Positions 10,437 to 39,997 of a DNA stretch of 50,753 nucleotides are shown piece by piece. The stretch spans positions 1 to 50,753 of the forward strand of contig CAZQEY010000010.1 in NCBI GenBank assembly GCA_964592485.1, given 5' to 3'. Within the stretch, counting starts at the first letter, position 1; each line of letters begins with the position of its first letter. Origin of the DNA: an uncultured Planctomycetales bacterium. GTDB lineage: Bacteria; Omnitrophota; Gorgyraeia; Gygaellales; JAHJCI01. Both the position numbers and the translations under genes were made by a program. The notes beneath the pieces are model-generated. The model worked only from the letters and a program-made list of their open reading frames with translations, was not told the origin of the DNA and did no database searches.

Positions 10437-11210
10437 ATGATTAGGGTAAAAAAGAACTGGTGGAAAGACTTTTTCAATAATATTTATTTAATTACTGATG
10501 CCCGCAGCGTAGGCGATGTTCATCTTACCTGCCGCGAGGTTGATTTATTAGAGAAGGTTTTGCGCTTGGATAAAACTGACCGCATCCTTGATTTATTTGG
10601 CGGGCAGGGGAGGCACTCAATAGAGCTGGCAAAACGCGGCTATCGAGATTTAACCGTGCTTGATTATTCTGATTATTTGATTAATTTAGGAAGGTGCTCA
10701 GCTAAAAAAGAGAATCTCAAGATAAATTTTTATCAGGGCGATGCACGTTCTACTAAACTTGCAAATAGTAATTATTCTGTTATTATCATAATGGCTAATT
10801 CCTTCGGTTATTTCACCAATGAAAGAGAAAATGAAAAAGTATTAAGAGAAGCACACCGGTTACTTAAAACCGGAGGCAGGTTGCTTCTGGATTTGATAAA
10901 TTCTGAACATGTTAAAAATACCCTCAAGCCCACTTCCTGGCATAGAATTGACAATGATATTGATGTGTTTCGAAAAAGAGAAATTAAAAATAACCTGGTT
11001 AAAACCAAGGAGACTGTAATCTCTCAGCGGAAGGGACTGATTAGGGATGGTAGTTATTGCGAGCGCATTTACACCAAAGCAAGAATCTGCCGATTACTTA
11101 AGAAGGTGGGTTTTAAAAATATTAACATAAAAAATAATCTTTCCCTCCATAAAGAAAATCAAGATTATGGTTTGCTTACCTCAAGGATGATTGTTACCGC
11201 AAATAAATGA
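10437..11210 (+). CDS. Class I SAM-dependent methyltransferase
   Basis: Motif I LDLFGGQGRHS; post-I D; motif LLKTGGRLLLD. Confidence 0.8.
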   Translation: MIRVKKNWWKDFFNNIYLITDARSVGDVHLTCREVDLLEKVLRLDKTDRILDLFGGQGRHSIELAKRGYRDLTVLDYSDYLINLGRCSAKKENLKINFYQGDARSTKLANSNYSVIIIMANSFGYFTNERENEKVLREAHRLLKTGGRLLLDLINSEHVKNTLKPTSWHRIDNDIDVFRKREIKNNLVKTKETVISQRKGLIRDGSYCERIYTKARICRLLKKVGFKNINIKNNLSLHKENQDYGLLTSRMIVTANK

Positions 11211-11287
11211 CCCCCCTATCCTTAATAAAGAAAACTAAAATTATGGTTTACTTACCTCAAGGATGATTGTTACCGCGAACAAATAAA
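11161..11287. repeat. Tandem duplication (~48 bp unit, 75 bp period) of the 3' end of the methyltransferase gene, including the stop codon
   Basis: AAGATTATGGTTTGCTTACCTCAAGGATGATTGTTACCGCAAATAAATGA and AAAATTATGGTTTACTTACCTCAAGGATGATTGTTACCGCGAACAAATAA. Confidence 0.9.
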
Positions 11288-11314
11288 AACTCCTATCTTA
11301 ACCTGAGATTTGTC

Positions 11315-12340
11315 TTAAGGACAGCTGATTTGAGCTAACTCTTCAACTGCTTTTTTAATCCGCAACATTCGTTCAGGGGAGGAAGGATGGGTAGAAAGGT
11401 AATTTCTAATCATTGACTGGGGAATCTCAATGGCAAACCTTTCCTGAAAATTTGCGCATACACAGGGGTCAAAACCAGCAAAATAGGTGAATCTCATGCC
11501 AAAATAATCTGCTTCCCTTTCCAGGTCTCGAGAATAACGTGCTTTAAATAAATCAGCGGTACGCATCACTAAATTACCGGTTCCTGGCGCAGCCTCATCG
11601 GCAATCAAGCCCAAGGGTATCCCGAATAAAAGTGATAAAAACGAGCTCAGCTGCGCCTTACTTACGTGGCCACGCACAAAATGCGCCAACTCATGACCCA
11701 GAACCGCAGCAATCTCATCATCTGATTTAGCAAAATTCAACAGGCCATAGGTAACATAAATCGCATTGCTACCAGCTGCCGCGTTAACCTCCTGGATATC
11801 AACCGTTATAATCGGCACATTTACGGGGATTGAACCGACAGTTAGAACAATCTCATCAGACACGCCTCGCCTTTGAATATGTAGTCTGATTGAATCTCCG
11901 ATATTTAATCTGCGGCGATATTGATTAAAATCACTGGTAGAAAAAAACCTATTGCCATCAATAGAAACCAAAATATCTCCTGGTACTATCCCCGCTGCCT
12001 TTGCCGGCGAACCATCAACCACAGCAATAACCGCCAGGCCCTTATCTACCTGAAGGTTATATAACTGCTTAAGATATTTATCCACTTCTGATACATATAT
12101 ACCCAAATAGGACTGAGGCTCTTTTGTGATTTTAACTTCTTCTTGGGGGATATGGGCAATCAGCTGATAGCCGATGTTATTAACCTTGGTTAATTGATTA
12201 AGCCGAAACCCCAAGGATTTGACCTTCAACTCCTCCTGCGCCCTTAAGATTTCCCCCTCTTCAACCGAGGGTCCGGTAATCGTAGCACAGCCGCTTAGGA
12301 AAAATAGGGCTAGAGTCAATAAAATTACATACCGCATCAT
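11315..12340 (-). CDS. Lipoprotein with a PDZ domain and an M48-family Zn-metallopeptidase domain
   Basis: Lipobox LSGC; PDZ GDILVSIDG; HELAHFVRGH (HExxH). The start is placed at MMRYVIL; the ORF-track start is a TTG. Confidence 0.75.
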   Translation of the reverse strand: MMRYVILLTLALFFLSGCATITGPSVEEGEILRAQEELKVKSLGFRLNQLTKVNNIGYQLIAHIPQEEVKITKEPQSYLGIYVSEVDKYLKQLYNLQVDKGLAVIAVVDGSPAKAAGIVPGDILVSIDGNRFFSTSDFNQYRRRLNIGDSIRLHIQRRGVSDEIVLTVGSIPVNVPIITVDIQEVNAAAGSNAIYVTYGLLNFAKSDDEIAAVLGHELAHFVRGHVSKAQLSSFLSLLFGIPLGLIADEAAPGTGNLVMRTADLFKARYSRDLEREADYFGMRFTYFAGFDPCVCANFQERFAIEIPQSMIRNYLSTHPSSPERMLRIKKAVEELAQISCP

Positions 12341-12582
12341 TGTTTTTGTTTTCTCTTTTCGTAATAGCAAAGTAGAATGGCCAATAATATCGAAGGAGGT
12401 AATATAACAGTCAAGGCAAACCCCTTCCCCATCCTCATACTAAATATAACCAAGCCGAGAAATACCATAAACCAGAGAAGTTTTCTTAAGATATGTAATT
12501 TAAACCCGTCACAAAAACAAAATCCCACGAATGAAGCAAATAAGCTCAGGGTTAACCACTGCCAGAAGATTGTATTACCCAT
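12337..12582 (-). CDS. Possible small membrane protein (81 aa, 3 hydrophobic segments)
   Basis: ORF fills the gap between folE and the M48 gene. ATGA-type overlap with the downstream start. No functional motif. Confidence 0.35.
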   Translation of the reverse strand: MGNTIFWQWLTLSLFASFVGFCFCDGFKLHILRKLLWFMVFLGLVIFSMRMGKGFALTVILPPSILLAILLCYYEKRKQKQ

Positions 12583-12583
12583 T

Positions 12584-13144
12584 TTATTTGCCCCCTATTA
12601 GCGCTAAGGTCTCGGCACGCGTCTTCTCGTTCTCTTTAAAAATCCCGCGCACAGCTGAGGTTACTGTCATAATGCCAGGTTTTTTTATCCCCCTGAAAGA
12701 CATACACAAATGTTCTGCCTCGATTACTACCATAACCCCCCGTGGTTTAAGTTTTTTCATAATAATCTCGGCAACCTGAGTGGTGAGCCTCTCTTGAACC
12801 TGAGGTCTCCTAGATAGCGTGTCAACAACGCGTGCTAATTTGCTCAAGCCAGTAACCCTTCCTCCCTTAGGAACATAAGCAATATGGGCACGGCCGACAA
12901 AAGGGATAAGATGATGCTCACAGACCGAGTAGAGTGGTATTCCTCTAAGCAGAATTATCTCATCATGTTTCTGCTCAAGGATTACGTCGAGTTCCTTTTC
13001 CGGATCCCGACTGACTCCCCCGAATATCTCTTCATACATTTCAGCAACTCGCCGCGGCGTGTCCCTCAAGTCTCTCTTCGTGGGGTCCTCGCCAATTGCA
13101 ACCAAGATATCTCTTATTGCCTTTTCTATTTTTTTCTTATCCAT
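12584..13144 (-). CDS. folE: GTP cyclohydrolase I
   Basis: [21 protein letters not shown] signature; 186 aa; AAAGGAG SD. Confidence 0.95.
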
Positions 13145-13213
13145 CCCCCCTCGCTCCTTTCAGTCGCTCAGGAGAAACCAGAGAACAAAATACAGATTTT
13201 CTGGTTTCTTTAA

Positions 13214-14656
13214 TTATTTACCTATACAAAATTCACTGAAGATTCTATCCAACAGTCCATCGGAAAAACGCCCACCCAAAATCTCATCTAAAAAACCAAT
13301 TGCCTCTTGGAGGTCCTGGGCGATGAACTCAAAAGGTAAATTCGCATTAGCTGATTTTCTCGCCCGCATAATTGATTTCTTTACCTTTCTAAGTTGCTGA
13401 ATATGCCTTAGATTAGTCACCCATACCGGAGTGTCTGATTTAATTTTACCACTAAATACAAATTGGGCAATTGCTTCTTCCAGCAGGTCGATATTTTTTT
13501 GTTTTTTTGCCGAGACCTGAACAACCTGCGGGAAGCGTTGAGCAATTTTATCGTACTCGATATTCTGCTTCAGGTCTATCTTGTTAATTAAAGCGATAGT
13601 CGGTTTGGAGTTAATCTTGCGCATTAAGACCCTATCTTCATACGATAAATCCCTGCTGCCGTCAAAAACAAGTAAGACCAAATTCGCCTCTCGGATATAG
13701 CGCTGGCTGCGGGAAACTGCCTTTTGTTCGATTAAATCGCCTGGTTCGATTATTCCGGCAGTATCAACAATCCTTATCGGAATGCCCCTAATATCTAAAA
13801 TGTCCTCAATTGTATCGCGGGTGGTCCCCGCAATCGGAGTAACGATTGAACGTTCACATTTTAATAATGCATTTAAAAGCGAGGATTTTCCGACATTGGG
13901 CCTGCCGCAAATAACCACCTTTATGCCTTCACGAAAAACCCTGCCCCTTTTTGAATTCTCCAAGAGAAATTCTAATTGATGATTTATTCGGTCTATACTT
14001 ATAGTGATATTCTTGATATCCACTGCTTCCAAGCCCTCATCGGGAAAATCAATATTTGCCTCCAAGATGGTAAGTAGTTCTAATAATTTATCTCTTAACT
14101 GATTCAACCTTTTTGAGAAATCCCCCTTCAATTGCTCAACGCTTGCCCTTAAGGCAGTATCCGTTTTTGCCCTAATAATATCTAATACTGCCTCAGCCTG
14201 GGTAAGGTCAATCCGACCATTTAAAAAGGCGCGCTTAGTAAATTCTCCCGGATTACTCAAGCGGGCGCCTAAACTTAAAACTAATTCCAGAGTTTTTCTT
14301 AAAGGGATAATCCCCCCGTGACAGTTAATCTCCACAATATCTTCGCGTGTATAACTTTTAGGCCTACGCATCACTGTCAGTATAACCTCATCAACAATAT
14401 CTGATTTTTGTCCGCCTTCATTTAATTTCGGCGAACAACCCGCCGAAGTCTTGACGAAGGCGGGTTGATTTTTCACAATCCATCCGTAATGAGTCGTATA
14501 GGTTTTAAAATTGGAAGGCTTTTGACCATCCTTGGAAACAAAGATCTTATCCGCAATAGTTATTGCCTTACTCCCGCTAATTCTCACAATACCAATGCCT
14601 GACTCACCAACCGGAGTGGAAATTGCCGCAATCGTATCATTTAGATTAAAATTCAT
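13214..14656 (-). CDS. mnmE: tRNA modification GTPase MnmE (TrmE) carrying a ~20 aa in-frame insertion
   Basis: GRPNVGKSSLLNAL, DTAG and C-terminal CIGK. The insertion PAFVKTSAGCSPKLNEGGQKS is encoded by a palindromic element. Confidence 0.95.
   Translation of the reverse strand: MNFNLNDTIAAISTPVGESGIGIVRISGSKAITIADKIFVSKDGQKPSNFKTYTTHYGWIVKNQPAFVKTSAGCSPKLNEGGQKSDIVDEVILTVMRRPKSYTREDIVEINCHGGIIPLRKTLELVLSLGARLSNPGEFTKRAFLNGRIDLTQAEAVLDIIRAKTDTALRASVEQLKGDFSKRLNQLRDKLLELLTILEANIDFPDEGLEAVDIKNITISIDRINHQLEFLLENSKRGRVFREGIKVVICGRPNVGKSSLLNALLKCERSIVTPIAGTTRDTIEDILDIRGIPIRIVDTAGIIEPGDLIEQKAVSRSQRYIREANLVLLVFDGSRDLSYEDRVLMRKINSKPTIALINKIDLKQNIEYDKIAQRFPQVVQVSAKKQKNIDLLEEAIAQFVFSGKIKSDTPVWVTNLRHIQQLRKVKKSIMRARKSANANLPFEFIAQDLQEAIGFLDEILGGRFSDGLLDRIFSEFCIGK
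14412..14464. repeat. GC-rich nested palindromic element inserted in-frame in mnmE
   Basis: Outer arms CCGCCTTC/GAAGGCGG. Inner hairpin TTCGGCG-aacaacc-CGCCGAA. No counterpart in E. coli MnmE. Confidence 0.7.
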
Positions 14657-14662
14657 CCTCTT

Positions 14663-16120
14663 TTAAGGGACACTCTTTGAGCCAATCGGGAAGGTGTCCC
14701 TACTCCTCAAGAGAAAATCCCTTGCCTCACCTACCAGAAATAAAGAACCGGTAACTAAAATTAAATCCTCGGGATTTGCTTTTTTGACGGCTAATTCTAT
14801 GGCCTCCTTTACCTTTCTAGTCTTATTTATGTGGGAACTGTTAACTGCGAGTTGTAAACTAACAGCCTGTTCAATCATATCCACGCCCCCTGCCCGGGGA
14901 TTATCTGCCTGAGTCAAGATAAGTTCATTACTCATCGGGACAAGCACCCGACAGATTCCCTTTATATCCTTATCCTGAGAAATGCCCAGAACCAAGATTA
15001 TGCGCTTATCAGGGAAGTTCGTAACAACTGTCTGCTGAAGCGCCTGGGCAGAAGCAACATTCTGCGCCCCGTCGAGAACTATCGAGGGCCTCTCTGAAAT
15101 AATCTCGAATCTACCCGGCCAAATAGTATTATATAACCCGGCTCTTATGAGTTCAAGATTCGCCCTTAATTGATAAAATCTGATTAAAACTAAAATGACC
15201 GCTACTGCCAGAGTAGCATTGACTACTTGATGCCTTCCTAACAATCTTATCCTTAAATCCACCCATTTACCTAAGGCTCCATTTATATTAAAACATTGCT
15301 GATTTCGTCCGCAATCCTTTGTCTGGAAAATTATATCCTTCCCAAGTTCATATAAAATTGCATTCTGCTTTCTGCATCTATCTCTGATTATTTCCATAAC
15401 TTCTTCATTCTGTGGCGCACTGATAACTACCAACGGCAGGTTGTCAACCGCCAACTGCGAACTATTCTTTATAATTCCTGCTTTCTCTCGAGCAATCTCA
15501 CTCAGGGTCTCACCCAACAGTCTTGTATGCTCATAACTTATTGGGGTTATTGCTGCAATTAAGGGATTAACTATATTGGTTGCATCCAGTCTTCCGCCCA
15601 GGCCTGTCTCTAATATAGCAAAATCTATCCTTTCCTGTCTAAAATATTTAAAAGCCAAGGTAGTATATACCTCAAAGAAGGAAAGTGCACCATATCTTGA
15701 CTGAGAATTATATTCCTCAATGTAGGGTCTTAGCTCCTCTACCAAATCTATTAATTCTCTTTCGGAGATCAAGCCTTCAAACTCAATTCTTGATTCTTGA
15801 TTCCTGTTTCCTGTTTCTCGCTGTCCTTGGCGAGGATTTAATATACGAATCCTCTCTCTAAAATCCGATAAATGCGGTGAAGTGTAGAGACCAACTTTGG
15901 AGCCAGCCTCACGCAATATATAGGCAATAAATGCCGAGGTCGAACCTTTACCTTTGGTCCCGGCAATATGAATGAATCTTAAATCGTCCTGGGGATTATT
16001 TAGTATCTTAAGGAATGCCTCTATCCGTTCTAATTTAAAGGATTGCCCATAAGGGTATTGGGAAATTTTTTCATAGTCAATAAATGAATTAAGATATTTA
16101 ATTGCTTCCGGGTAGGTCAT
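14663..16120 (-). CDS. folC: Folylpolyglutamate synthase / dihydrofolate synthase (Mur ligase family)
   Basis: HIAGTKGKGST P-loop. Start taken at MTYPEAIKYL, because the ORF-track start is a TTG inside a hairpin. Contains an in-frame low-complexity insertion (RQGQRETGNRNQES). Confidence 0.9.
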   Translation of the reverse strand: MTYPEAIKYLNSFIDYEKISQYPYGQSFKLERIEAFLKILNNPQDDLRFIHIAGTKGKGSTSAFIAYILREAGSKVGLYTSPHLSDFRERIRILNPRQGQRETGNRNQESRIEFEGLISERELIDLVEELRPYIEEYNSQSRYGALSFFEVYTTLAFKYFRQERIDFAILETGLGGRLDATNIVNPLIAAITPISYEHTRLLGETLSEIAREKAGIIKNSSQLAVDNLPLVVISAPQNEEVMEIIRDRCRKQNAILYELGKDIIFQTKDCGRNQQCFNINGALGKWVDLRIRLLGRHQVVNATLAVAVILVLIRFYQLRANLELIRAGLYNTIWPGRFEIISERPSIVLDGAQNVASAQALQQTVVTNFPDKRIILVLGISQDKDIKGICRVLVPMSNELILTQADNPRAGGVDMIEQAVSLQLAVNSSHINKTRKVKEAIELAVKKANPEDLILVTGSLFLVGEARDFLLRSRDTFPIGSKSVP

Positions 16121-16160
16121 ATTCGTTATTGCGTTCTTGCGTCCTTCGATAAACTCAGGA

Positions 16161-16192
16161 CGCAATCCTGAACTTGTTGAAGGATTGCGTTA
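16161..16192 (-). promoter_or_regulatory. 10 bp perfect inverted repeat hairpin between purH and folC (ACGCAATCCT...AGGATTGCGT), followed by a direct repeat AACGCTATAAC x2
   Basis: Seen in the sequence. No U-run follows, so it is not a classical terminator. Confidence 0.4.
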
Positions 16193-16228
16193 TTGCGTCA
16201 AACGCTATAACCCAATAACGCTATAACG

Positions 16229-17788
16229 TTAATGTTTGAAGTGTCTCCTGCCGGTGGTAACCATAGCAATATTATATTTATTGCAGGCCTTGATGATTTC
16301 CTCGTCGGAGATTGAGCCGCCGGGTTGGATTATTGCCTTCACACCTGCGCGCGCCGCCTGAATAACCGCATCGGCTTTGGGGAAAAAGGCATCTGAGGCA
16401 AGACAGGAGTTAGAGCTAAGCTTTCCTGCTTTTCTTTTGGCAATAATGACTGAATCTACGCGGGACATCTGGCCTGCTCCGATGCCTACGGTTTTAGTCC
16501 CCCGGACAAGAACGATGGCATTGGATTTGACGTGCTTGACTACCTTCCAGGCAAAGATAAGGCTATCCAGCTGATTACGGGTTGGCTTTTTCTTGGTTAC
16601 AACCTTAAGATTATTTATCTCATCCAATTCTATATCTTTATCCTGAATTAATAACCCTCCGCTTATCCTCTTGAGGTCAAATTCATTAAGCTTTTCTAAA
16701 TCCATTAATTCCAATAAACGCAGATTCTTCTTTTGCTTAAGTAGATTTAACGCATCCTGTTGGAATCCGGGGGCGATGATACACTCTATAAACCCGCTGC
16801 GCAGGATTAGGCTCGCTGTTTTTGAATTTACCTTTCTATTTAAACCTACAATACTACCAAAGGCAGAGAGGCTATCGCACTTCCAGGCATTCAGGAAAGC
16901 TTGTTCCAAGGATTTATCCTCGGCTGCGCCGCAGGGATTATTGTGTTTGGTAACTACTGCTGCAGGCTGTTTAAACTCAATTACCAATTCCCAAGTGCTG
17001 TTCAGGTCTAGGATATTATTAAAAGAAAGCTCCTTACCGTGAAGCTGTCTTAGATTAATCAAGCCTTGCCTTGCCTGCTTTTGTTTATAAAAAGCTGCCC
17101 CCTGATGGGAGTTTTCTCCATAACGCAATTCTTGAAGTTTACTAAATGCCAGATTTAATTCCTGAGGAAATTCCGCCCTTTGCCCCTTGATTTCTTGTTT
17201 TTTGCTGCTCAAATAATCATAAATCGCTGCGTCATAATGCGCAGTTAAGTTGAATACCTCAACCGCTAAACGCTTGGCTGTCTGAGTGCTTATTGCTCCT
17301 TTATTCTGACTGAGTTCTTCCAATATCGATTTATACTGATTGGAGCTGGATACAACTACCACTGACTGGTGGTTTTTGGCTGCCGAACGCAACATTGACG
17401 GTCCGCCAATATCAATATTCTCAATTGCCTCTTCTTCGGCTACGCCCGGTTTGGCAACTGTCTTCTCAAACGGATAGAGGTTTACTACTACCATATCAAT
17501 CAGGCCAATTCCGTGTCTTTCTAATGTCTGCATATGTCCGGGATTATCTCGCAAGGCAAGAAGCCCTGCATGAATCTTGGGATGCAAGGTTTTTACTCTC
17601 CCATCCAGCATCTCAGGGAAACCGGTATAATTAGAAACATCAATTACCGGGATATTATTTTCTTTTAATAATTTCGCTGTGCCGCCAGTAGAAAGAATCT
17701 CTACACCAAATTTAGACAAACTGCTGGCAAAATCAACAATCCCTGTCTTATCAGATACACTAATTAAAGCACGCTTAATTACAATCAT
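16229..17788 (-). CDS. purH: Bifunctional AICAR transformylase / IMP cyclohydrolase
   Basis: N-terminal [10 protein letters not shown]; 519 aa; AGGAGG SD. Confidence 0.95.
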
Positions 17789-25227: not shown

Positions 25228-26346
25228 TTAACAAATACGAGGCAAGGGTTCAGAGGTCAACATATCAAGGATGCGGTCTGTACCCAATGTGGTTTTAAGC
25301 AACACCATACCCCGAGGCTTAGAGACTATCCTGCCTATAATTCGGGCAAATCTTCCGAGCTTCTGCCGCTTAAGATATTTTAAGACACTGTCCGCCGAAT
25401 CAGATTTAACTACCAGAACTGCCTTTCCTTCATTAGCAATGTATAAAGGGTCAATCCCCAATAATTCACTCGCTGCCTTTATCCGACTGGCAATGGGAAT
25501 CTTTGCCTCGTGGACAACAATGCCCAAATTAGCGGCCCGGGCAATTTCATTCAAGGTTGTCGCCAATCCTCCGCGGGTAGGGTCGCGCATAAATTTTATC
25601 CCGCACCTTCTTGCCTTACTGCTATTTTTCCCTCGAGAAGGTGCGGGATTTATTGCCTCATCTTTTAATAAGGGAATCAACAGCTTATCCAGGCTAGCGC
25701 AATCGCTCTTAATATTTAGACCAAAATCCATTCCCTTGCGCTGGGTTAATATGCTTAATCCGTGTTCAGCAATCCTTCCTGTGATGATAATCTTGTCGCC
25801 GACTTCGATATTTTTTATTTTAAAATCCCTGATAACCCTGCCTATACCTGTAGTATTGATAAACAACTTATCGCAGGCTCCCCTCTCTACCACCTTTATA
25901 TCGCCGGTAATAACCTTAACCTGAGAACTCTTAGAGGCAGAAGAGATGGCATTAACCACGCGCTCTAATAATGAATAATCCAGCCCCTCCTCAATAATTA
26001 AGGCCAGGGACAGATAAAGGGGCAAGGCGCCAGAAACTACCAGATCATTTATCGTGCCAGAAACAGCAAGTTTACCAATATCCCCACCGAGGAAAAATAG
26101 GGGATGGACTACAAAGGAATCGGTAGTAAATGCTATTGCCTTATCCCAAACCTTTGGATATCTATAGAGGACTCCGCCACGTGGAAGGGTGAGAGAATTA
26201 TCTTTAAAGTCAATAACTGCGCTATCAGTTAATTTATTTAGCAGCGAATTACTGAATTTGGGCAGGATTAGATCTCTGATTAAATTATGCGTTAACTGAC
26301 CACCGCTTCCATGAGCTAATAGAATCTTCGAATTTTGTTTTATCAT
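25228..26346 (-). CDS. hypE: Hydrogenase maturation protein HypE (carbamoyl dehydratase), with a 17-codon in-frame insertion
   Basis: N-terminal LAHGSGGQL and C-terminal LPRIC. 372 aa versus ~336 aa. The insertion SAPSRGKNSSKARRCG sits where E. coli HypE has no counterpart. Confidence 0.9.
   Translation of the reverse strand: MIKQNSKILLAHGSGGQLTHNLIRDLILPKFSNSLLNKLTDSAVIDFKDNSLTLPRGGVLYRYPKVWDKAIAFTTDSFVVHPLFFLGGDIGKLAVSGTINDLVVSGALPLYLSLALIIEEGLDYSLLERVVNAISSASKSSQVKVITGDIKVVERGACDKLFINTTGIGRVIRDFKIKNIEVGDKIIITGRIAEHGLSILTQRKGMDFGLNIKSDCASLDKLLIPLLKDEAINPAPSRGKNSSKARRCGIKFMRDPTRGGLATTLNEIARAANLGIVVHEAKIPIASRIKAASELLGIDPLYIANEGKAVLVVKSDSADSVLKYLKRQKLGRFARIIGRIVSKPRGMVLLKTTLGTDRILDMLTSEPLPRIC
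25599..25649. repeat. 51 bp palindromic element (ATCCCGCACCTTCT...AGAAGGTGCGGGAT) inserted in-frame within hypE
   Basis: 14 bp perfect arms with a 23 nt loop. Length is divisible by 3. Same core as the elements at 32420, 35554 and 49829. Confidence 0.8.
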
Positions 26347-26372
26347 TTTTAATGTCGCACTTTCAATTACGA

Positions 26373-26410
26373 GTATCTAGTTATCTAGTATCGAGTATCC
26401 AGTATCAATT
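26373..26410. repeat. Tandem heptamers (TATCNAG x5) in the leader immediately upstream of hypE
   Basis: GAGTATCTAG TTATCTAG TATCGAG TATCCAG TATCAAT. Confidence 0.6.
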
Positions 26411-32381: not shown

Positions 32382-32522
32382 TTCAATTCGCCCGCCAAAG
32401 TTCTGTGGCGGGCGAATTGAACCCCGCACCTTTTTCCTACGAAGCAACTCTGCACAGTAGAAAGGTGCGGGGTTAATTCCGACTTACAACTTATGTCCTT
32501 TGAATAAACTCAGGACATAAGT
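32382..32522 (-). promoter_or_regulatory. Three consecutive strong hairpins in the hypC leader: a 15 bp TTCAATTCGCCCGCC hairpin, a 14 bp AACCCCGCACCTTT hairpin and an 11 bp ACTTATGTCCT hairpin
   Basis: Perfect inverted repeats at 32382-32421, 32420-32474 and 32489-32522. Confidence 0.7.
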
Positions 32523-32603: not shown

Positions 32604-33794
32604 TTAATGGGTCCAAGAGGCAACCGCTGCCTGCCCTAGACTGATGCTTATATCCGAGCAAGGCAGCATCTTATGAGTTAAAATATGAAATCCCGCTTTT
32701 TCTAATAAACCCAAACTTAACTTAAGTAGAATCTTATTCTGGAATACTCCGCCGGTTAAAATAACAGTATTAATCCGGGTGCCGCCTCTTATTCTCAGGC
32801 AGGTCTTTCTAATCATATCGGCAACAGTCAGATGAAAACAAGCAGCAATCTCTTCCTTACTGCAGTCATTTTTCAAATCAGCAATAATCTCCCTAAGGGT
32901 CAAAACCGGATCGATGACAAAAACCTGCCCAATCTTTTTAATCGCAAACTGATAACTTCTCGGCTGAGATTTATAACCAGAAGCGAGCCTTTCTAAATTT
33001 ATCGCTGCCTCAGCCTCGAATCCAACCCGGTAAATCTCTAAGACCAGGCAAGCAATAGCATCAAAGAGCCGACCAATGCTTGAGGCGGGAGGTGAATTAA
33101 AATTCTGCCTCCACATCTTTTCTAGGATAATCCAATTTTTTTTATTTATCCGTTTGAGAAAATCCAAATCTAAATCTAAAAAATTATTTCCAAAAGCCAG
33201 ACAAAGCCAAGCCGAAGCTACTCTCCAAGGTTCATAAATCGCTTTCTTGCCTCCTAAGAGAGGGATATATCTTAAGTGGGCTGCCCGTTTGAAATCCCGA
33301 TAATCAGCAACTAAGAATTCTGCGCCCCAGAGTGTTGAATCACTTCCAAAACCAGTGCCATCAAAGGCAACACCAATAACCCTTTGATTGCTAAGTTTAT
33401 TCTCAAGCATACAAGAAGCAATGTGGGCATGGTGATGTTGAACAGGAATAAGTCTTGGCCCATCAGAAATTTTTGCTCTGCATTTTGCTAAAGCACTATT
33501 TCTAGCGGAATTTATATTTTTTACTTTTTGCAAGTCGAGGATATATTTCGTCGAGAAATATCCCGGATGTTTGTCATAGGCAATAATCCTGGGTGACAGA
33601 CCAAAGCGTTGGGGAATTAAACTTATTCTCCTTTGAAATTTTTTAAAATTATCCGGTATCTCTAAATCGTTGATTACTTCGTTGATAAAAGCAGATCTAC
33701 GGTAAGCAAAGCAAAGGCTATTCTTTATATCTGCTCCCACTGCCAGTATTGGCTTCTTAATTTTAAAGGGTAAATCTATTTCTGACCAAGACAC
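32604..33794 (-). CDS. hypF: HypF-like carbamoyltransferase, Kae1/YgjD-like C-terminal domain only. No acylphosphatase, Zn-finger or YrdC domains in this ORF.
   Basis: PILAVGADIKNSLCF and QHHHAHIASC match HypF C-domain motifs. GTG start. 396 aa versus ~750 aa for full HypF. Confidence 0.65.
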   Translation of the reverse strand: MSWSEIDLPFKIKKPILAVGADIKNSLCFAYRRSAFINEVINDLEIPDNFKKFQRRISLIPQRFGLSPRIIAYDKHPGYFSTKYILDLQKVKNINSARNSALAKCRAKISDGPRLIPVQHHHAHIASCMLENKLSNQRVIGVAFDGTGFGSDSTLWGAEFLVADYRDFKRAAHLRYIPLLGGKKAIYEPWRVASAWLCLAFGNNFLDLDLDFLKRINKKNWIILEKMWRQNFNSPPASSIGRLFDAIACLVLEIYRVGFEAEAAINLERLASGYKSQPRSYQFAIKKIGQVFVIDPVLTLREIIADLKNDCSKEEIAACFHLTVADMIRKTCLRIRGGTRINTVILTGGVFQNKILLKLSLGLLEKAGFHILTHKMLPCSDISISLGQAAVASWTH

Positions 33795-34690: not shown

Positions 34691-34808
34691 AGGCACAATT
34701 TTGTCTCTTAATAATATAATCCAGATAATTACATGTAGAATTGGGAGAAATTTACCCCATTAGAAAGAAAGCATAATTCCAGAGATAGATGCAACTTTCT
34801 AACGGCGT

Positions 34809-35537: not shown

Positions 35538-35553
35538 AAGACAACAGACAATT

Positions 35554-35632
35554 CGCCCCGCACCTTTTCTTTATTCTTCTGGTTTTTATTTACAAATTTA
35601 ACTATATTTGAACATCAAGAAGGTGCGGGGCG
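35554..35632. repeat. Palindromic element copy (CGCCCCGCACCTT...AAGGTGCGGGGCG, ~53 nt loop) between acyP and the phosphoesterase gene
   Basis: 13 bp arms with compensatory flanking CG. Starts 2 nt after the acyP stop. Confidence 0.75.
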
Positions 35633-35633
35633 A

Positions 35634-35914: not shown

Positions 35915-35999
35915 TGGTGCGCGGGAGGAGATTTGAACTCCTACGGGTTGCCCCACTACCCCCTCAAAGTAGCGTGTCTGCCAGTTCCACCACCCGCGC
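35915..35999 (-). tRNA. tRNA-Leu (anticodon GAG), class II with a long variable arm, CCA encoded
   Basis: Hand-folded. 7 bp acceptor GCGCGGG/CCCGCGC. Anticodon loop UUGAGGG with U33. T-loop TTCAAAT. D-arm GGAACUGGCAGAC is Leu-like. Confidence 0.8.
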
Positions 36000-36008
36000 A
36001 AATTATCA

Positions 36009-36080
36009 CTGCCCCGTCTGGACTCGAACCAGAATACCAAGATCCAGAGTCTTGTGTCCTACCGATTAGACGACAGGGCA
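36009..36080 (-). tRNA. tRNA-Gln (anticodon CUG), U1-A72, G73 discriminator, CCA not encoded
   Basis: Hand-folded. Acceptor UGCCCUG/CGGGGCA. U8. Anticodon loop CUCUGGA. T-arm UCUGG-UUCGAGU-CCAGA. Confidence 0.7.
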
Positions 36081-36085
36081 AATCT

Positions 36086-36260: not shown

Positions 36261-37574
36261 CTACCCCCCTTTTTTAATCCATCTGCTTAACCTTGCCTTG
36301 GTTATCTGTTTGCCTAGACAGAATATTACGTCAAACAGACCCGGCCCAATAGTCTTGCCGGTTAAGGCAACCCTTAAGGGATGAATTAATTGTCGCGAAT
36401 TCATGTTAAGCTCCTTTACCAAATCCCTGAATGTTTTCTCGATACCAACTACCGTAAACGACTCTAATCTTTGCAATCTCTCTATAAATAGACTAAATTC
36501 CCTTGATAAGTCCTGGCTTAAAAATTTGTCTTTTAGACTTTCCCCTATCTCAATCTCATCCAGGAAGAAAAAGTCCGCCCAATCTAAAAAATCCTCCAAT
36601 GTATTAATCCGGCCCTGATATAATTTCACCACTCCCGCTAACCTCTGCTTAGATAAACAGTAACTTTCTGCCTGAGGAAATCTCTTCTTAATCATGGGAA
36701 TGAGCAAATCAATAAGCCTCTCCGCAGAAGTGTTTTTGATATATTGATTGTTAATCCAATTAAGTTTATCCCGATCAAAAATTGCTGCAGTCTTATTTAT
36801 ATTGCTGATATCAAAAATTTTTATTGCTTCCTGAATATCAACAATCTCACGATTCTCTCCGGGTGACCAACTAAGAAGTAAAAGATAATTGACTAACGCC
36901 TCCGGTAAAAAACCGAGTTGGTGATATTCGCTAATCGCGGTTGCGCCGGTTCGCTTGGAAAGCCTGGAGCCGTTTTTGCCTAAGATTAAGGGAAGATGAG
37001 CAAATATAGGTATATTGTATCCCAGTGCTTGATATAAAAGAACCTGTTTGGGCGTATTGGAAATATGGTCATCCCCCCTGATTACATGAGAAACCTCCAT
37101 TGTAGCATCATCTACCACGCAGGCAAAATTATAGGTAGGCATACCATCGGATTTAATCAGCACCTGGTCTTTAATTGTGCTTGCGTCAAACTCAATCTCT
37201 CCGTGGATTAAATCATTTATCTTAACCTCACCCGGGTTAATTTTAAAGATAATTGCCTCTTGCTTATGGTTTTTGTCTTGGGTCTTATCAAAATATGCCT
37301 TCCCCTGATTTAGCAGTTTCTGGGCATGCTCTCTATAAATATCCAAACGCTTGCTTTGGTAATATATCTGGTCCCAATTAAATCCCAGCCAAGTAAGGCT
37401 CTGTAAAATCTCATCCAGGTATTCCTTCTTTGAGCGCTCCTGGTCAGTATCCTCAATCCTCAATACGAGCTGGCCCTTGTTTGCTTTAGCATAAAGCCAG
37501 TTAAACAAAGCGGTGCGCGCTCCGCCGATATGTAAATTCCCTGTTGGTGAAGGCGCGAATCTGACCTTTATCAT
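36261..37574 (-). CDS. gltX: Glutamyl-tRNA synthetase
   Basis: RFAPSPTGNLHIGGARTAL (HIGH) and KLSKR (KMSKS). Confidence 0.9.
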   Translation of the reverse strand: MIKVRFAPSPTGNLHIGGARTALFNWLYAKANKGQLVLRIEDTDQERSKKEYLDEILQSLTWLGFNWDQIYYQSKRLDIYREHAQKLLNQGKAYFDKTQDKNHKQEAIIFKINPGEVKINDLIHGEIEFDASTIKDQVLIKSDGMPTYNFACVVDDATMEVSHVIRGDDHISNTPKQVLLYQALGYNIPIFAHLPLILGKNGSRLSKRTGATAISEYHQLGFLPEALVNYLLLLSWSPGENREIVDIQEAIKIFDISNINKTAAIFDRDKLNWINNQYIKNTSAERLIDLLIPMIKKRFPQAESYCLSKQRLAGVVKLYQGRINTLEDFLDWADFFFLDEIEIGESLKDKFLSQDLSREFSLFIERLQRLESFTVVGIEKTFRDLVKELNMNSRQLIHPLRVALTGKTIGPGLFDVIFCLGKQITKARLSRWIKKGG

Positions 37575-38116
37575 CTTGCCAGCTTTATTCCCTTCTCTAT
37601 TGCTCGTTTATTAATTTCAATCAAGCCCTTTTTATCTGCCGGAGCAATATCCTCTATTGCAGAAAAAACAATTTGTTTATTAAGAATCTTCCGTTTTGCG
37701 ATATAGCCACCCAGAGCAACCATATTCGCAACCCTTATATTGCCCAACTCTACAGCAGCTTCAGTAAAAGGCAAAAATACTTGTTTGTTGCTCGACGCCC
37801 TATGTCCTGTCTTATCAGTATTTACCAAAGAACTATTAACCAATAACAAGCCTTTTTTGTTTATTCTCTGATTGAATTTAGAAAAAGACAAATCATTCAT
37901 AATTATTATTGTATCTGCTTTATCAATATAAGGAGAGGGAATATCGCCGGACGAAAGTTTTACCATACAATAAGCAGCCCCGCCCCTTACCTCCGCACCA
38001 TAGGTGGGAAACCAGGTTACATTCATCCCCTTGCCTAAAGCAGCTGCGGCAATCACCTTGCCTAGTAGCATTATCCCCTGACCGCCACTGCCCGCAACTA
38101 TAATCTGCTCAAGCAT
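37571..38116 (-). CDS. 2-oxoacid:ferredoxin oxidoreductase gamma subunit
   Basis: VAGSGGQG motif. ATGA overlap with gltX. Confidence 0.85.
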   Translation of the reverse strand: MLEQIIVAGSGGQGIMLLGKVIAAAALGKGMNVTWFPTYGAEVRGGAAYCMVKLSSGDIPSPYIDKADTIIIMNDLSFSKFNQRINKKGLLLVNSSLVNTDKTGHRASSNKQVFLPFTEAAVELGNIRVANMVALGGYIAKRKILNKQIVFSAIEDIAPADKKGLIEINKRAIEKGIKLAR

Positions 38117-38844
38117 TATTTAATTCTCCCAAGGGGAAACTCTTTGCTCATTACATCGCGAATCCAATCCATTGCCTTCTTTGGCGGCATCTGCCAGTAT
38201 GTGGGGCAAGGAGAAAGTACCTCAACCAAAGAAAAACCCAGATTATCAACCTGATTAACCAATGCCTGTCTTATTGATTTTTTTGCCCGGATTACTTCCT
38301 GGGGGGAATAGACCGAAACCCGCTCCACATACTTTACTGCCGGCAATTGAGCCAGTAATTCAGAAATCTTCAAAGGATAACCGCTAATCTTTACATCGCG
38401 ACCCCAAGGGGTAGTGGCTGTTTTCTGGCCCAATAGTGTGGTAGGCGCCATCTGCCCGCCAGTCATTCCGTAAACAGCATTATTGATAAATATTGCGGTT
38501 AAATTCTCTCCCCGGTTTGCAGTATGAATTGTCTCTGCTGTTCCGATTGCCGCTAAATCTCCATCTCCTTGATAGGTAAAAACGACATTTTCTGGCCTCA
38601 CCCTCTTTATTCCCGTTGCTACTGCCAGGGCCCGGCCATGAGCTGCTTCACAACAATCAAAATCCCAATAATCGTAAGCAATTACCGCGCAGCCTACGGG
38701 TGCCACCGCTATTGTCTTCTCCCTTATCTCTAACTCATCAATAACCTCGGCAACCAGACGATGAACAATACCATGACCGCAACCTGCGCAATAGTGTGTT
38801 GCTACCTTACGCAAAGATTCAGGATGACTAAATATTTTCTTCAT
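38116..38844 (-). CDS. 2-oxoacid:ferredoxin oxidoreductase beta subunit (TPP-binding)
   Basis: CAGCGHG and GDGD motifs. Confidence 0.9.
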   Translation of the reverse strand: MKKIFSHPESLRKVATHYCAGCGHGIVHRLVAEVIDELEIREKTIAVAPVGCAVIAYDYWDFDCCEAAHGRALAVATGIKRVRPENVVFTYQGDGDLAAIGTAETIHTANRGENLTAIFINNAVYGMTGGQMAPTTLLGQKTATTPWGRDVKISGYPLKISELLAQLPAVKYVERVSVYSPQEVIRAKKSIRQALVNQVDNLGFSLVEVLSPCPTYWQMPPKKAMDWIRDVMSKEFPLGRIK

Positions 38845-38914
38845 ATTATTGTTATGTCCGTTTGGTCTGTTATGTCTGTTTAGTCCGTTAACAGAGCTAA
38901 CGGAATTAACGGAC
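38845..38914 (-). promoter_or_regulatory. Intercistronic hairpin/repeat region between the alpha and beta subunit genes (GTCCGTTAA...TTAACGGAC; repeated YTAACGG motifs)
   Basis: 9 bp inverted repeat abutting the alpha-subunit stop. Direct repeats TTATGTCCGTTT/TTATGTCTGTTT. Confidence 0.5.
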
Positions 38915-39997
38915 CTAACGGGCTAAATGATTTATCTTACTTATTATCTCTTGTTCCGACGGTATTCCTCCGCCAGCACGGCCAAAGAATTCCACTGGAG
39001 CTTTTCCTCCCACAGCTAACTTTACATCTTCAAGCATCTGACCATAAGACATCTCAGTCACTACATAACGGATTTTTTTTGAGGGATTATGATCAAATGC
39101 CTTCTGAGGGAACGGCCAGAGGCTGATTGGTTGAATAAGCCCGATTCTCATATTCTGTTTTCTCAATCTGTTTACCACATTTTGGGCAATTCTTGCCATC
39201 GTTCCATAAGCAACCAAGACAATCCGGGCATCATCCAGAAATAAACTCCTCCAGCGCTGCTGCTGACTTTGCATCTTTTGATATTTCTTCTGCAAACCCT
39301 TATTAGCCTCTTCCAGTGCCCCCTCGGGTAAATAGAGCGACTTTATAACATTGGGCTTGCGATTCCTGCAGCCAGTCAACGCCCATTTCTTAATTGAGAG
39401 TTCACGGTCGACGGTTGACGGATTTTTTCTGTGAACTGTGGAGTGTGAACTGTGAACTAAAAGGGGTTCCATCATCTGTCCAAGCATCCCATCACCTAGA
39501 ACGATCACTGGATTCCTGTATTGCCAAGCCAGCTTGAATGCCAATAGCATCAAATCAAATGCCTCCTGAACCGAAGAAGGAGCAAGAACAATACAGCGAT
39601 AATCTCCATGCCCTCCGCCTTTGGTTGCCTGAAAATAATCTGATTGCGATGGAGCGATATTGCCCAGGCCTGGACCGCCGCGCATAATATTAACAATTAC
39701 GGCAGGAAGCTCGCATCCAGCTAGATAAGAAATCCCCTCCTGCTTGAGGCTGATTCCCGGGCTGGAAGAAGAGGTCATTGCCAGCGCGCCGGCAGCGGCG
39801 GCGCCAAAAACCATATTTATTGCGGCTAATTCTGATTCTGCCTGAATAAAGATACGATTCTCCTCAATCATTCTTTTTGCCATATAAGCAGTGAGTTCAT
39901 TCTGAGGAGTAATTGGATATCCAGCATAGAAGGCGCAATCTGCCTGAATCGCTCCTTCACCAATTGCCTCATTACCCGTCATTAATATTTTTTTCAT
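38915..39997 (-). CDS. 2-oxoacid:ferredoxin oxidoreductase alpha subunit, with a repeat-encoded in-frame insertion
   Basis: Alpha-subunit N-terminus MTGNEAIGEGAIQA. Insertion HSSHSTVHRKNPSTVDR is encoded by TGTGAACT repeats at 39398-39459. Confidence 0.9.
   Translation of the reverse strand: MKKILMTGNEAIGEGAIQADCAFYAGYPITPQNELTAYMAKRMIEENRIFIQAESELAAINMVFGAAAAGALAMTSSSSPGISLKQEGISYLAGCELPAVIVNIMRGGPGLGNIAPSQSDYFQATKGGGHGDYRCIVLAPSSVQEAFDLMLLAFKLAWQYRNPVIVLGDGMLGQMMEPLLVHSSHSTVHRKNPSTVDRELSIKKWALTGCRNRKPNVIKSLYLPEGALEEANKGLQKKYQKMQSQQQRWRSLFLDDARIVLVAYGTMARIAQNVVNRLRKQNMRIGLIQPISLWPFPQKAFDHNPSKKIRYVVTEMSYGQMLEDVKLAVGGKAPVEFFGRAGGGIPSEQEIISKINHLAR

What the first reader, a model, noticed from the sequence alone, without database searches (positions are those of the whole stretch)
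15790..15850. Repeat-encoded in-frame insertions in folC and in the oxidoreductase alpha subunit (39398-39459)
folC carries short tandem direct repeats (CTTGATTC x2, CCTGTTTC x2) plus a CTCGC...GCGAG hairpin. They encode RQGQRETGNRNQES, which is not found in typical FolC. The alpha-subunit gene carries AGTTCACGG...TGTGAACT TG...TGTGAACTGTGAACT (inverted plus three direct TGTGAACT copies) encoding HSSHSTVHRKNPSTVDR. Together with the hypE and mnmE insertions, several core genes in this window carry tolerated repeat-derived loops.
Basis: partly seen in the sequence, partly recalled or inferred. Interest (0 to 1): 0.5.

Follow-up and report, generated by a model that had tools for sequence, protein, structure and literature searches.

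The report
Translated 7-base repeat arrays in enzymes
The odd extra loops in two housekeeping enzymes of this uncultured Omnitrophota bacterium are translated arrays of 7-base tandem repeats, which sit at the same spots in its relatives but with different sequences, and in one enzyme form a conserved hairpin inside the gene.

Summary
The folC site is one array of about 7.7 heptamers. The vorB site is two inverted arrays of about 4 units around an A-rich spacer. Both are in frame and encode loops that AlphaFold2 models as disordered. Thermotoga FolC and non-Omnitrophota VorB lack them.

They are not private insertions. Omnitrophota homologues carry heptamer arrays at the same positions in VorB (14 of the 17 loci read as DNA), FolC and MnmE, each lineage with its own unit. 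Loop peptides show a dominant 7-residue period. In the Omnitrophota DNA I collected, period-7 arrays occur at 16.6 per 100 kb, against at most 2.5 for any other period and 1.6 in outgroups.

The window's folC array is exactly 3 units (21 nt, 7 aa) longer than its nearest relative's. The two vorB arms co-vary: 87.9% of cells pair, 14 pairs show compensatory changes, and 0 of 500 shuffles match this. They fold as interrupted hairpins in all 9 lineages.

Best reading: vertically inherited heptanucleotide repeats kept uniform by slippage and hairpin-mediated correction, tolerated in permissive loops. A selected hairpin function is not excluded.

The hypE and mnmE insertions are a different class, GC-rich hairpins. 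This is a new variant of known heptamer repeats.

The parts
14663..16165 (-). folC (folylpolyglutamate/dihydrofolate synthase). The real start is probably the ATG at about 16120 (M16), where the homologues begin.
   Evidence: TIGR01499 362 bits, matched in 2 stretches broken near residue 131. Homologues are named FolC, Candidatus Omnitrophota.
15782..15835 (-). folC heptanucleotide array of about 7.7 units. The coding strand reads CCTCGCC AAGGACA GCGAGAA ACAGGAA ACAGGAA TCAAGAA TCAAGAA TTGAG. It encodes PRQGQRETGNRNQESRIE.
   Evidence: TRF period 7. Lag-7 score 19 of 21. It is 3 units (21 nt, 7 aa) longer than the orthologous array in L100, which reads CCGAGAA CCGAGAG TCAAGAA TCGAGAA TCGAG. 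pLDDT is below 50 at residues 116-125 in an otherwise confident model.
15419..15460 (-). Second folC variable loop (NSSQLAVDNLPLVV), a degenerate site probably derived from heptamers.
   Evidence: It is 7 aa longer than 1O5Z. The lag-7 score is only 0.57 in the window, but L101 scores 0.76 at this site. L086 carries GTCACAC x2.9 in this loop, and L088 carries GGCCCCA x3.7 at a comparable distance into folC.
38915..39997 (-). VorB-type alpha subunit of a 2-oxoacid:ferredoxin oxidoreductase. The beta subunit is at 38116..38844 and the gamma subunit at 37571..38116.
   Evidence: NF005507 513 bits; Pfam POR_N plus PFOR_II.
39430..39458 (-). 5' (left) arm of the vorB module. The coding strand reads A GTTCACA GTTCACA CTCCACA GTTCACA, encoding VHSSHSTVH.
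   Evidence: TRF period 7 x4.3. It aligns in register with the left arms of 8 other lineages.
39422..39429 (-). A-rich spacer forming the hairpin loop (coding strand GAAAAAAT).
   Evidence: An A-rich or purine-rich spacer lies between the arms in all 9 loci.
39398..39421 (-). 3' (right) arm of the vorB module. The coding strand reads CC GTCAACC GTCGACC GTGAACT C, encoding PSTVDREL. It is a partial reverse complement of the left arm.
   Evidence: TRF period 7 x3.1. Hairpin dG is -12.6 kcal/mol, z = -3.0. Pairing and covariation with the left arm are shown.
14411..14467 (-). mnmE in-frame insertion, a different class. It is a nested GC-rich hairpin (CCGCCTTC..TTCGGCG..CGCCGAA..GAAGGCGG) flanked by AAAAATCA direct repeats.
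   Evidence: RNA dG -28.6 kcal/mol, z = -4.9. The site is a hypervariable loop of 0-36 aa that carries two-arm heptamer arrays in relatives.
25598..25649 (-). hypE in-frame insertion, a different class. It is one copy of a dispersed hairpin with the stem ATCCCGCACCTTCT / AGAAGGTGCGGGAT.
   Evidence: 14-bp perfect inverted repeat. The same stem occurs at 32413-81, 35553-633 and 49833-949. It adds 17 aa relative to 24 HypE homologues. dG -24.4 kcal/mol, z = -4.5.

Best explanation
Both sites are translated heptanucleotide (7-nt) tandem arrays, a repeat class strongly over-represented in Omnitrophota DNA.

The vorB element is an old, vertically inherited module. Two arrays of about 4 units lie in inverted orientation around an A-rich spacer, in the linker between the POR_N and PFOR_II domains. 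The unit sequence has turned over between lineages while each array stays nearly uniform (concerted evolution). The two arms have stayed complementary at about 5 of 7 positions per unit, so the module can fold as an interrupted 'ladder' hairpin.

The folC element is a single array at a turn just after the conserved SPHL..ERIRI strand. In this genome it has grown by exactly three units (21 nt, 7 aa).

Shown: the anatomy, the excess of period-7 arrays, positional conservation with unit turnover, arm covariation, and the disordered-loop location.

Inferred: the arrays are kept uniform and resized by slipped-strand mispairing, with only frame-preserving outcomes surviving in genes. The arms are kept complementary by hairpin-mediated template switching, by selection for pairing, or by both. 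The encoded peptides are passengers tolerated in permissive loops.
For: Period and excess:
- TRF in the window reports period 7 at both sites.
- Census of 283.6 kb of Omnitrophota DNA: 47 period-7 arrays (16.6 per 100 kb), against 0-7 arrays for every other period from 4 to 15, and 1.6 per 100 kb in 1.11 Mb of outgroup DNA.
- Perfect period-7 tracts show a distinct hump at 26-36 nt.

Same sites, different units:
- DNA of the VorB loop was read in 17 Omnitrophota loci. Fourteen carry arrays, each with its own unit. Three (L003, L007 and L102) have none.
- FolC: WIN, L100 and L086 all carry arrays at the same site.
- MnmE: L088 and L100 carry arrays at the loop where the window has a hairpin.
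- Loop peptides have a dominant 7-residue period. Identical residues at lag 7 number 170 for VorB (41-52 at other lags), 104 for FolC (30-52) and 128 for MnmE (32-100).

Dynamics:
- The window's folC array is exactly 3 units longer than L100's.
- The vorB arrays have collapsed in the closest relative, L102.
- 15 of 55 ortholog insertion instances of 4 aa or more are heptamer-periodic.

Hairpin:
- Complementarity between a locus's own arms averages 0.73, against 0.55 across loci; 1 of 100000 permutations reaches this.
- RNAalifold predicts 25 pairs, 14 of them with compensatory changes.
- 87.9% of cells pair against 74.6% in shuffles (0 of 500). The covariation score is 0.414 against 0.168 (0 of 500). 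Slid controls give at most 47% paired.
- All 9 modules fold, with dG from -12.6 to -33.5 kcal/mol and z from -2.4 to -7.2.

Tolerance:
- VorB residues 183-223 and FolC residues 116-125 have pLDDT below 50.
- Outgroups lack the extra residues.

Literature context:
- Heptamers are the most abundant long simple-sequence-repeat (SSR) class in bacteria, and a polymerase-slippage idea has been proposed for them (Mrazek 2007, as summarised in PMC4679880).
- Xanthomonas heptamer arrays prefer four units, often occur as inverted pairs, and keep their position between species (PMC4692102).
Against: - A single-unit slip (7 nt) frameshifts an essential gene, so simple slippage should be strongly counter-selected. 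How arrays stay uniform without passing through dead intermediates is unexplained.
- Array length is peaked at about 4-5 units rather than declining monotonically as a neutral microsatellite would.
- An invariant G in every left unit and an invariant C in every right unit across 9 lineages, together with compensatory changes, fit selection on a structure as well as they fit a mutational mechanism.
- Stop-codon avoidance explains the arm mismatches in only 6 of 9 loci.
- The loci were chosen because they contain vorB or folC, so the coding fraction and the density are biased.
- Units within an array are copies of each other, so covariation counts are not independent events.
Confidence: 0.55

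Rival explanations
1. The inverted heptamer module is a selected nucleic-acid structure. It would be an interrupted RNA or DNA hairpin, or an array of heptamer binding sites for a protein, acting for example on mRNA stability, translational pausing at a domain boundary, or transcription or replication. The peptide would be a by-product.
For: - Pairing is maintained through compensatory changes in 9 lineages.
- G and C are invariant at 7-nt spacing.
- Folding is strong and significant, with z down to -7.2.
- The same two-arm architecture occurs in intergenic DNA: window 47236-47305 and L082 11070-11143.
- Array size is narrow, at about 4 units.
- CspB-type OB folds are reported to bind one heptamer each (reviewed in PMC4679880).
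Against: - The window's own copy is decayed (dG -12.6 kcal/mol, z = -3.0), and the closest relative L102 has lost the arrays without losing the gene.
- The folC array has no significant fold.
- No Rfam family matches.
- Sites lie in unrelated genes with no common position relative to the start or stop codon.
Confidence: 0.2
2. The segments are footprints of a small mobile palindromic element (MITE-like or RPE-like) that inserted independently into permissive loops in different lineages.
For: - These are in-frame insertions in core genes, as with Rickettsia palindromic elements.
- Units at different sites of one genome neighbourhood are more alike than units between genomes. Distance of 1 or less occurs in 8 of 65 within-locus pairs against 21 of 832 between-locus pairs, Fisher p = 6e-4. 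For example, the L085 arrays at 7750, 9877 and 10567 share one unit family.
- A genuinely dispersed hairpin family does exist in this genome and has entered hypE.
Against: - Units at orthologous vorB sites align in register and share the AG(T)/(A)C core across 9 lineages, which indicates common descent rather than repeated insertion.
- Within the window the vorB and folC units occur nowhere else.
- There are no terminal inverted repeats or target duplications around the arrays.
- In several lineages the arrays replace rather than extend the ancestral linker (27-29 aa against 26).
Confidence: 0.1
3. The repeat-encoded peptides themselves are selected, for example as flexible linkers or interaction loops.
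For: Loops are retained in most Omnitrophota homologues, and the VorB linker is expanded from 26 to 37-44 aa.
Against: - Peptide sequence is not conserved at all between lineages.
- All three reading frames of the unit are read in turn, which gives arbitrary residues.
- Some close relatives lack the loops: L102 for VorB, and P0242 and P0339 for MnmE.
- The loops are modelled as disordered.
Confidence: 0.05
4. The arrays are contingency loci that switch the genes on and off by frameshifting (phase variation).
For: The unit length is not a multiple of 3 and the arrays lie inside ORFs, which is the classical anatomy of phase-variable genes.
Against: - Every allele whose DNA I read at these sites (about 25 across vorB, folC and mnmE) is in frame.
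- The length difference observed between relatives is 21 nt.
- The genes are housekeeping enzymes, not surface structures.
Confidence: 0.03

Closest known systems
Heptanucleotide long simple sequence repeats of bacteria (Mrazek et al. 2007, as summarised in PMC4679880 and PMC4692102); cyanobacterial STRR heptamers (Mazel et al. 1990, cited in PMC4692102)
   Same: Head-to-tail 7-nt units. Period 7 is far more common than neighbouring periods. A few units per array. Function unknown, with polymerase slippage proposed.
   Different: The known cases are mainly intergenic, and in STRR a few unit sequences are reused genome-wide. Here nearly every site has its own unit, and many arrays are translated inside conserved enzymes.
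GGGNATC heptamer repeats of Xanthomonas and Nostoc (Rehm et al. 2015, PMC4692102)
   Same: Preference for about four units. Frequent inverted pairs close together (70-75 cases per Xanthomonas genome). 83% are kept in the same gene context between species, with differing lengths and the single or paired type preserved.
   Different: [quoted passage not shown] The Omnitrophota units are diverse and mostly not G-rich. The four-unit preference therefore cannot be explained by G-quadruplexes here, and the arrays lie within ORFs.
TAACTGA direct repeats of Beggiatoaceae, Cyanobacteria and Bacteroidetes (MacGregor 2015, PMC4679880)
   Same: Heptamer arrays of 2-6 copies. Arrays sometimes lie just upstream of start codons (compare window 26370-26406, upstream of hypE). 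When read in the reverse orientation they give a 7-residue periodic peptide (LSVISYQ). L083 VorB encodes QLSVVSC from the one-base variant TCAGTTG.
   Different: A single unit is shared across genomes. Copies inside ORFs are reported only at protein termini or in hypothetical proteins, not in the middle of conserved enzymes at orthologous positions.
Rickettsia palindromic elements (Ogata et al. 2000, from my own knowledge)
   Same: Palindromic DNA lies in frame within conserved protein-coding genes, encoding an extra surface segment that does not destroy function.
   Different: RPEs are dispersed copies of 100-150 nt sharing one family sequence, and are inferred to be mobile. The arrays here are locus-specific tandem repeats inherited at orthologous sites. 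The hypE hairpin in this window is the closer analogue of an RPE.
REP/REPIN hairpins (PMC3116915)
   Same: Imperfect hairpins whose two arms co-evolve, present in many copies per genome.
   Different: REPINs are extragenic, share a family sequence and are linked to RAYT transposases. No RAYT was seen, the arms here are tandem heptamers, and the copies studied are intragenic.

Membership tests
Heptanucleotide tandem repeat (long SSR / STRR-like) | At least 3 head-to-tail copies of a 7-nt unit | tested here: met
   TRF reports period 7 x4.7 in folC, and x4.3 and x3.1 in vorB. Orthologous arrays reach 4-5 perfect units.
Heptanucleotide tandem repeat (long SSR / STRR-like) | Period 7 over-represented relative to other periods and to shuffled sequence | tested here: met
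   47 period-7 arrays against 0-7 for each period from 4 to 15 in 283.6 kb. In the window, 3 against 0.0 in shuffles.
Heptanucleotide tandem repeat (long SSR / STRR-like) | A small set of unit sequences reused across the genome (STRR, GGGNATC, TAACTGA types) | tested here: not met
   The 43 arrays compared carry many different units, and the window's vorB and folC units occur nowhere else in the window. There is only a weak within-locus excess of similar units: 8 of 65 pairs against 21 of 832, p = 6e-4. I had no whole genome.
Heptanucleotide tandem repeat (long SSR / STRR-like) | Predominantly intergenic location | tested here: inconclusive
   About two thirds of the detected arrays lie inside ORFs of at least 90 aa. 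The loci were selected for genes that contain arrays, so the fraction is biased.
In-frame palindromic selfish DNA (RPE-like) | In-frame insertion in a conserved gene at a structurally permissive site | tested here: met
   The ORFs are intact. The loops have pLDDT below 50. They are absent in outgroups.
In-frame palindromic selfish DNA (RPE-like) | Member of a dispersed family of sequence-similar copies | tested here: not met
   The vorB and folC units are unique within the window. By contrast, the hypE hairpin stem has 4 copies in the window.
Phase-variable contingency locus | Repeat-number changes that shift the reading frame among alleles | tested here: not met
   All orthologous alleles examined are in frame, and the WIN-to-L100 difference is 21 nt. 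Variation within populations was not testable.
REP/REPIN | Extragenic hairpin family associated with a RAYT transposase | tested here: not met
   The elements studied are intragenic. No transposase domain was found among the 38 window ORFs I scanned against Pfam. Only 50 kb of the genome was available.
Structured RNA family (Rfam) | Match to a curated covariance model | tested here: not met
   Only two tRNAs reach the gathering score in the window.

The most novel reading that the evidence does not exclude
Inverted pairs of four-unit heptamer arrays may be a distinct, actively maintained genetic element of Omnitrophota, and perhaps of other heptamer-rich bacteria. They would be a 'ladder' hairpin made or recognised by dedicated machinery, such as a heptad-stepping polymerase or primase, a hairpin-templated repair or conversion pathway, or a protein that binds one heptamer per subunit. 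This machinery would seed the element in any permissive sequence, including enzyme loops, keep it complementary through unit turnover, and so drive loop-length evolution of core proteins. If so, the four-unit preference seen earlier in Xanthomonas would reflect this machinery rather than G-quadruplexes.
Probability: 0.15. Interest if true: 0.8.

Novelty: new variant of a known kind. Interest (0 to 1): 0.6.

Why it matters
Heptanucleotide repeats have been known since 1990 and are the commonest long simple repeats in bacteria, yet their origin and function remain unexplained.

Here they sit inside essential genes at orthologous positions. That gives a natural experiment with a built-in alignment frame. 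The unit can be seen to turn over while the array form, the size of about four units and the inter-arm pairing persist. The reading frame reveals which length changes survive: 21-nt steps. This makes the questions 'why seven?', 'why four units?' and 'slippage or structure?' testable by comparative and read-level analysis.

There are also two practical points. These arrays account for a noticeable share of the indels in conserved Omnitrophota proteins (15 of 55 instances). Annotators and phylogeneticists should also expect 7-residue periodic, non-homologous loop sequence in alignments of this phylum.

Tried and rejected
- Reading the repeats as 8-mers: rejected, because the copies overlap by one base and the period is 7.
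- The folC CTCGC/GCGAG stem as a meaningful hairpin: not better than shuffles.
- Rfam scan of the window: only two tRNAs.
- Assembly artefact: rejected. An independent assembly is identical, and arrays recur in frame in NCBI, ENA, JGI and Logan contigs.
- Phase variation: no out-of-frame allele was seen.
- Private recent insertion: rejected by the homologue alignments.
- Treating all four insertions as one class: rejected, because hypE and mnmE carry GC-rich inverted repeats without period 7.
These were useful as outgroups only.
- The metagenome scan with FolC gave only 14 loci.
- Literature searches found nothing on Omnitrophota repeats.
- Elhai et al. 2008, on small dispersed repeats in heptamer arrays of Nostoc, could not be read. 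I use it only as a recalled lead.
Full report
**What is there**

The window is a contig of a Candidatus Omnitrophota MAG. It has about 41% GC and nearly all genes lie on the minus strand.

folC is at 14663..16165 (minus strand). The alpha subunit of a VorB-type 2-oxoacid:ferredoxin oxidoreductase is at 38915..39997 (minus strand), followed by the beta and gamma subunits.

The quoted 8-mers overlap by one base, so the repeats have period 7. Tandem Repeats Finder reports 15786-15818 (x4.7), 39400-39421 (x3.1) and 39429-39458 (x4.3), all with period 7.

On the coding strand, folC reads CCTCGCC AAGGACA GCGAGAA ACAGGAA ACAGGAA TCAAGAA TCAAGAA TTGAG. vorB reads (GTTCACA)2 CTCCACA GTTCACA, then an A-rich spacer, then GTCAACC GTCGACC GTGAACT. 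That is two arrays in inverted orientation.

The signal is well above chance. The small CTCGC/GCGAG stem in folC is not. An independent assembly of the vorB region is base-for-base identical.

**The segments are extras, but not private ones**

- In the 28 non-Omnitrophota VorB loci matched by the anchor motifs, the span GQMMEP...W.L.G is 25-29 residues, and 26 in all but three. The window has 37, and Omnitrophota homologues have up to 44.
- T. maritima FolC (1O5Z) goes straight from ERIRL to NE-EYIS where the window has about 20 more residues. It also lacks 7 residues at a second folC site.
- Among 45 VorB, 51 FolC and 50 MnmE homologues from Omnitrophota, the same loop positions are length-variable. 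They are filled with peptides of 7-residue period, such as QLSVVSCQLS, ANSKWQIANGK, GARRKAQGARR and PSSVVRRPSSV.
- Summed identities at lag 7 are 170 for VorB (41-52 at other lags), 104 for FolC (30-52) and 128 for MnmE (32-100). A 7-residue period is what a heptanucleotide repeat gives when all three frames are read in turn.

**DNA of the homologues confirms this**

I read the VorB loop as DNA in 17 Omnitrophota loci. Fourteen carry near-perfect heptamer arrays, usually of four units, each with its own unit. Examples are (GTTCCTC)4 with (CGAACCA)4, (CAGTTGT)4 with (CTGAAAA)n, (GTCAATG)4 with (CTATCGA)4, (GCAAATR)4 with (CATWAGC)4, (GTTCAGA)4 with (CTACGAA)4, and (GTCAGGA)4 with (CTCCAAR)4. 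Single arrays occur in others. L003 and L007 have no array.

The closest relative (L102, 84% identical protein) has collapsed arrays.

In folC, the nearest relative L100 has CCGAGAA CCGAGAG TCAAGAA TCGAGAA TCGAG. The window's array is homologous to it and exactly three units (21 nt, 7 aa) longer.

**A genome-wide habit**

In 283.6 kb of Omnitrophota DNA gathered here there are 47 period-7 arrays (16.6 per 100 kb). Every other period from 4 to 15 has 0-7 arrays. The 1.11 Mb of outgroup loci have 1.6 per 100 kb, and a third of those come from one Elusimicrobiota-labelled MAG.

Perfect period-7 tracts show a background up to about 22 nt plus a separate hump at 26-36 nt, with 32 nt the most common length in the hump.

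About two thirds of the arrays lie within long ORFs, though my sample is biased towards such genes. In alignments of syntenic orthologues, 15 of 55 insertion instances of 4 aa or more are heptamer-periodic. The sites are the GH39 N-terminus, VorB, GltX, two sites in FolC, and MnmE.

**The vorB module is a conserved hairpin**

- The nine two-arm modules align in register, with an invariant G in each left unit and an invariant C in each right unit.
- Complementarity between a locus's own arms averages 0.73 against 0.55 across loci. The own partner is the best match in 7 of 9 loci, and 1 of 100000 permutations reaches the observed sum.
- RNAalifold predicts 25 pairs in a 3 bp, mismatch, 2 bp, mismatch pattern per heptamer. 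Fourteen pairs have compensatory changes.
- On that structure 87.9% of cells pair, against 74.6% in shuffles (0 of 500). The covariation score is 0.414 against 0.168 (0 of 500). Slid controls give 22-47% paired.
- All modules fold, with dG from -19 to -33.5 kcal/mol and z from -2.4 to -7.2. The window's copy is the weakest, at -12.6 kcal/mol and z = -3.0.
- A perfectly complementary right arm would create an in-frame stop codon in 6 of 9 loci, which explains part of the imperfection.

Two caveats apply. Units within an array are copies of each other, so the counts are not independent. There are only nine sequences.

**Tolerance**

AlphaFold2 models put the inserts in unstructured, low-confidence segments. 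These are VorB residues 183-223 and FolC residues 116-125, the latter in an otherwise confident model with mean pLDDT 87.

**Mechanism**

The best-supported reading is that these are vertically inherited heptanucleotide arrays. They are kept uniform and resized by slipped-strand mispairing, and in genes only frame-preserving outcomes survive. The two arms are kept complementary by hairpin-mediated template switching, by selection for pairing, or by both. The peptides are passengers.

The anatomy, excess, positional conservation, turnover and covariation are shown. The slippage and template-switch steps are inferred.

Four things this reading does not explain:
- How uniformity is achieved without lethal 7-nt intermediates.
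- Why arrays prefer about four units.
- Why G and C are invariant at heptad spacing.
- Why mismatches persist where stop codons do not force them.

These points keep a selected-structure reading alive (0.2). Independent mobile insertion is less likely because the units align in register across lineages. However, units at nearby sites of one genome are more alike than units between genomes (p = 6e-4), which I cannot explain.

**Comparison with what is known**

- Heptamers are reported as the most abundant long simple repeats in bacteria, and a polymerase-footprint slippage idea has been proposed (Mrazek 2007, as summarised in PMC4679880).
- Xanthomonas and Nostoc GGGNATC repeats prefer four units, often form inverted pairs and keep their positions between species. 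They share one G-rich unit, are interpreted as G-quadruplexes, and are depleted in coding regions (PMC4692102).
- TAACTGA repeats are intergenic, or at protein termini when inside ORFs (PMC4679880).

The Omnitrophota arrays share the period, the size, the pairing and the positional stability. They differ in having site-specific units, in lying in the middle of conserved enzymes, and in showing compensatory unit turnover. I found no paper on this in Omnitrophota. I therefore rate it a new variant of a known kind.

**The hypE and mnmE insertions are a different class**

hypE carries a 14-bp perfect inverted repeat (ATCCCGCACCTTCT...AGAAGGTGCGGGAT). It adds 17 aa that are absent from 24 homologues. 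The same stem flanks variable loops at three intergenic sites in the window and recurs in two other Omnitrophota genomes.

mnmE carries a nested GC-rich hairpin (dG -28.6 kcal/mol, z = -4.9) at a loop where relatives carry two-arm heptamer arrays.

Noticed in passing
window 25598-25649, 32413-32481, 35553-35633, 49833-49949; L082 19888-19967; L085 1-20: A dispersed hairpin family with the conserved stem (C)CCCGCACCTT(T/C)T / A(A/G)AAGGTGCGGG(G) and loops of very different length and sequence. All 8 exact CCGCACCTT hits in the window fall in these four pairs. One copy lies in frame in hypE. The same stem occurs in two other Omnitrophota genomes. The L082 copy is flanked by ATTCAT direct repeats and the hypE copy by ATAAA(A)T. 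It could be a MITE/REPIN-like element or a conserved protein-binding or terminator motif. The core resembles the Haemophilus uptake sequence AAGTGCGGT, probably by chance.
   Followed up: partly
window 14411-14467 (mnmE): A nested GC-rich hairpin insertion flanked by AAAAATCA direct repeats. Its arms (CCCGCCTTCG) resemble the CCCGCACCTTC family. Among close relatives the same site has no loop (L101), a heptamer array (L100) or a two-arm array (L088). The hairpin may therefore have landed in, or replaced, a heptamer array.
   Followed up: partly
window about 26150-26205 (hypE residues 48-66): A second private hypE insertion of 19 aa (KDNSLTLPRGGVLYRYPKV) with a central CCACGTGG palindrome. It is absent from nearly all of 24 homologues. 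Its nature is not resolved.
   Followed up: partly
window 26370-26406: A heptamer array (coding strand GATACTG GATACTC GATACTA GATAACTA GATACTC) ending about 23 nt upstream of the hypE start codon. This recalls the placement of TAACTGA repeats just upstream of start codons.
   Followed up: no
window 47236-47321: An intergenic two-arm heptamer module between ymdB and rny: GTAAATT x3.7, and TTACTAG x4.9 in inverted orientation, with arms 86% complementary.
   Followed up: no
window 46229-46252; L082 4064-4099; L089 3590-3613: T-rich heptamer arrays encode part of a hydrophobic segment (for example FAFCILNF). In the window and L082 this lies at the N-terminus of the GH39-family protein. In L089 it lies in an unannotated ORF. 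Repeat DNA may therefore be supplying a signal or transmembrane segment.
   Followed up: no
window 38850-38921: Period-9 and period-18 tandem repeats (TGTTATGTC x3.4; TAACGGAAC x3.7) fill the vorB-to-beta intergenic spacer. In L082 and L084 the same spacer holds heptamer arrays (AAGTTAT x5.4).
   Followed up: no
window 11149-11301, 42199-42377, 49111-49233: Longer tandem duplications: period 76 x2.0, period 94 x1.9, and period 41 x3.1.
   Followed up: no
window 32604-33794 and 33776-34696: The hypF ORF matches only the C-terminal Kae1-like domains (396 aa). No acylphosphatase, zinc-finger or YrdC part is adjacent. The upstream ORF is an RNase T-like exonuclease with a WYL fragment.
   Followed up: no
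L020 (MAG labelled Elusimicrobiota), 11052-17564: Six period-7 arrays in 21 kb. Heptamer richness is therefore not confined to Omnitrophota, or the bin is mislabelled.
   Followed up: no
L082 14180-14992, L083 14125-14862 and 18616-19251, L104 6753-7095: LAGLIDADG-type ORFs lie just downstream of gltX in several relatives, where the window has tRNA-Gln and tRNA-Leu (35915-36081).
   Followed up: no
window 16120-16165: The listed folC ORF starts at a TTG 15 codons upstream of the M at which all homologues begin. The real start is probably the ATG near 16120.
   Followed up: partly
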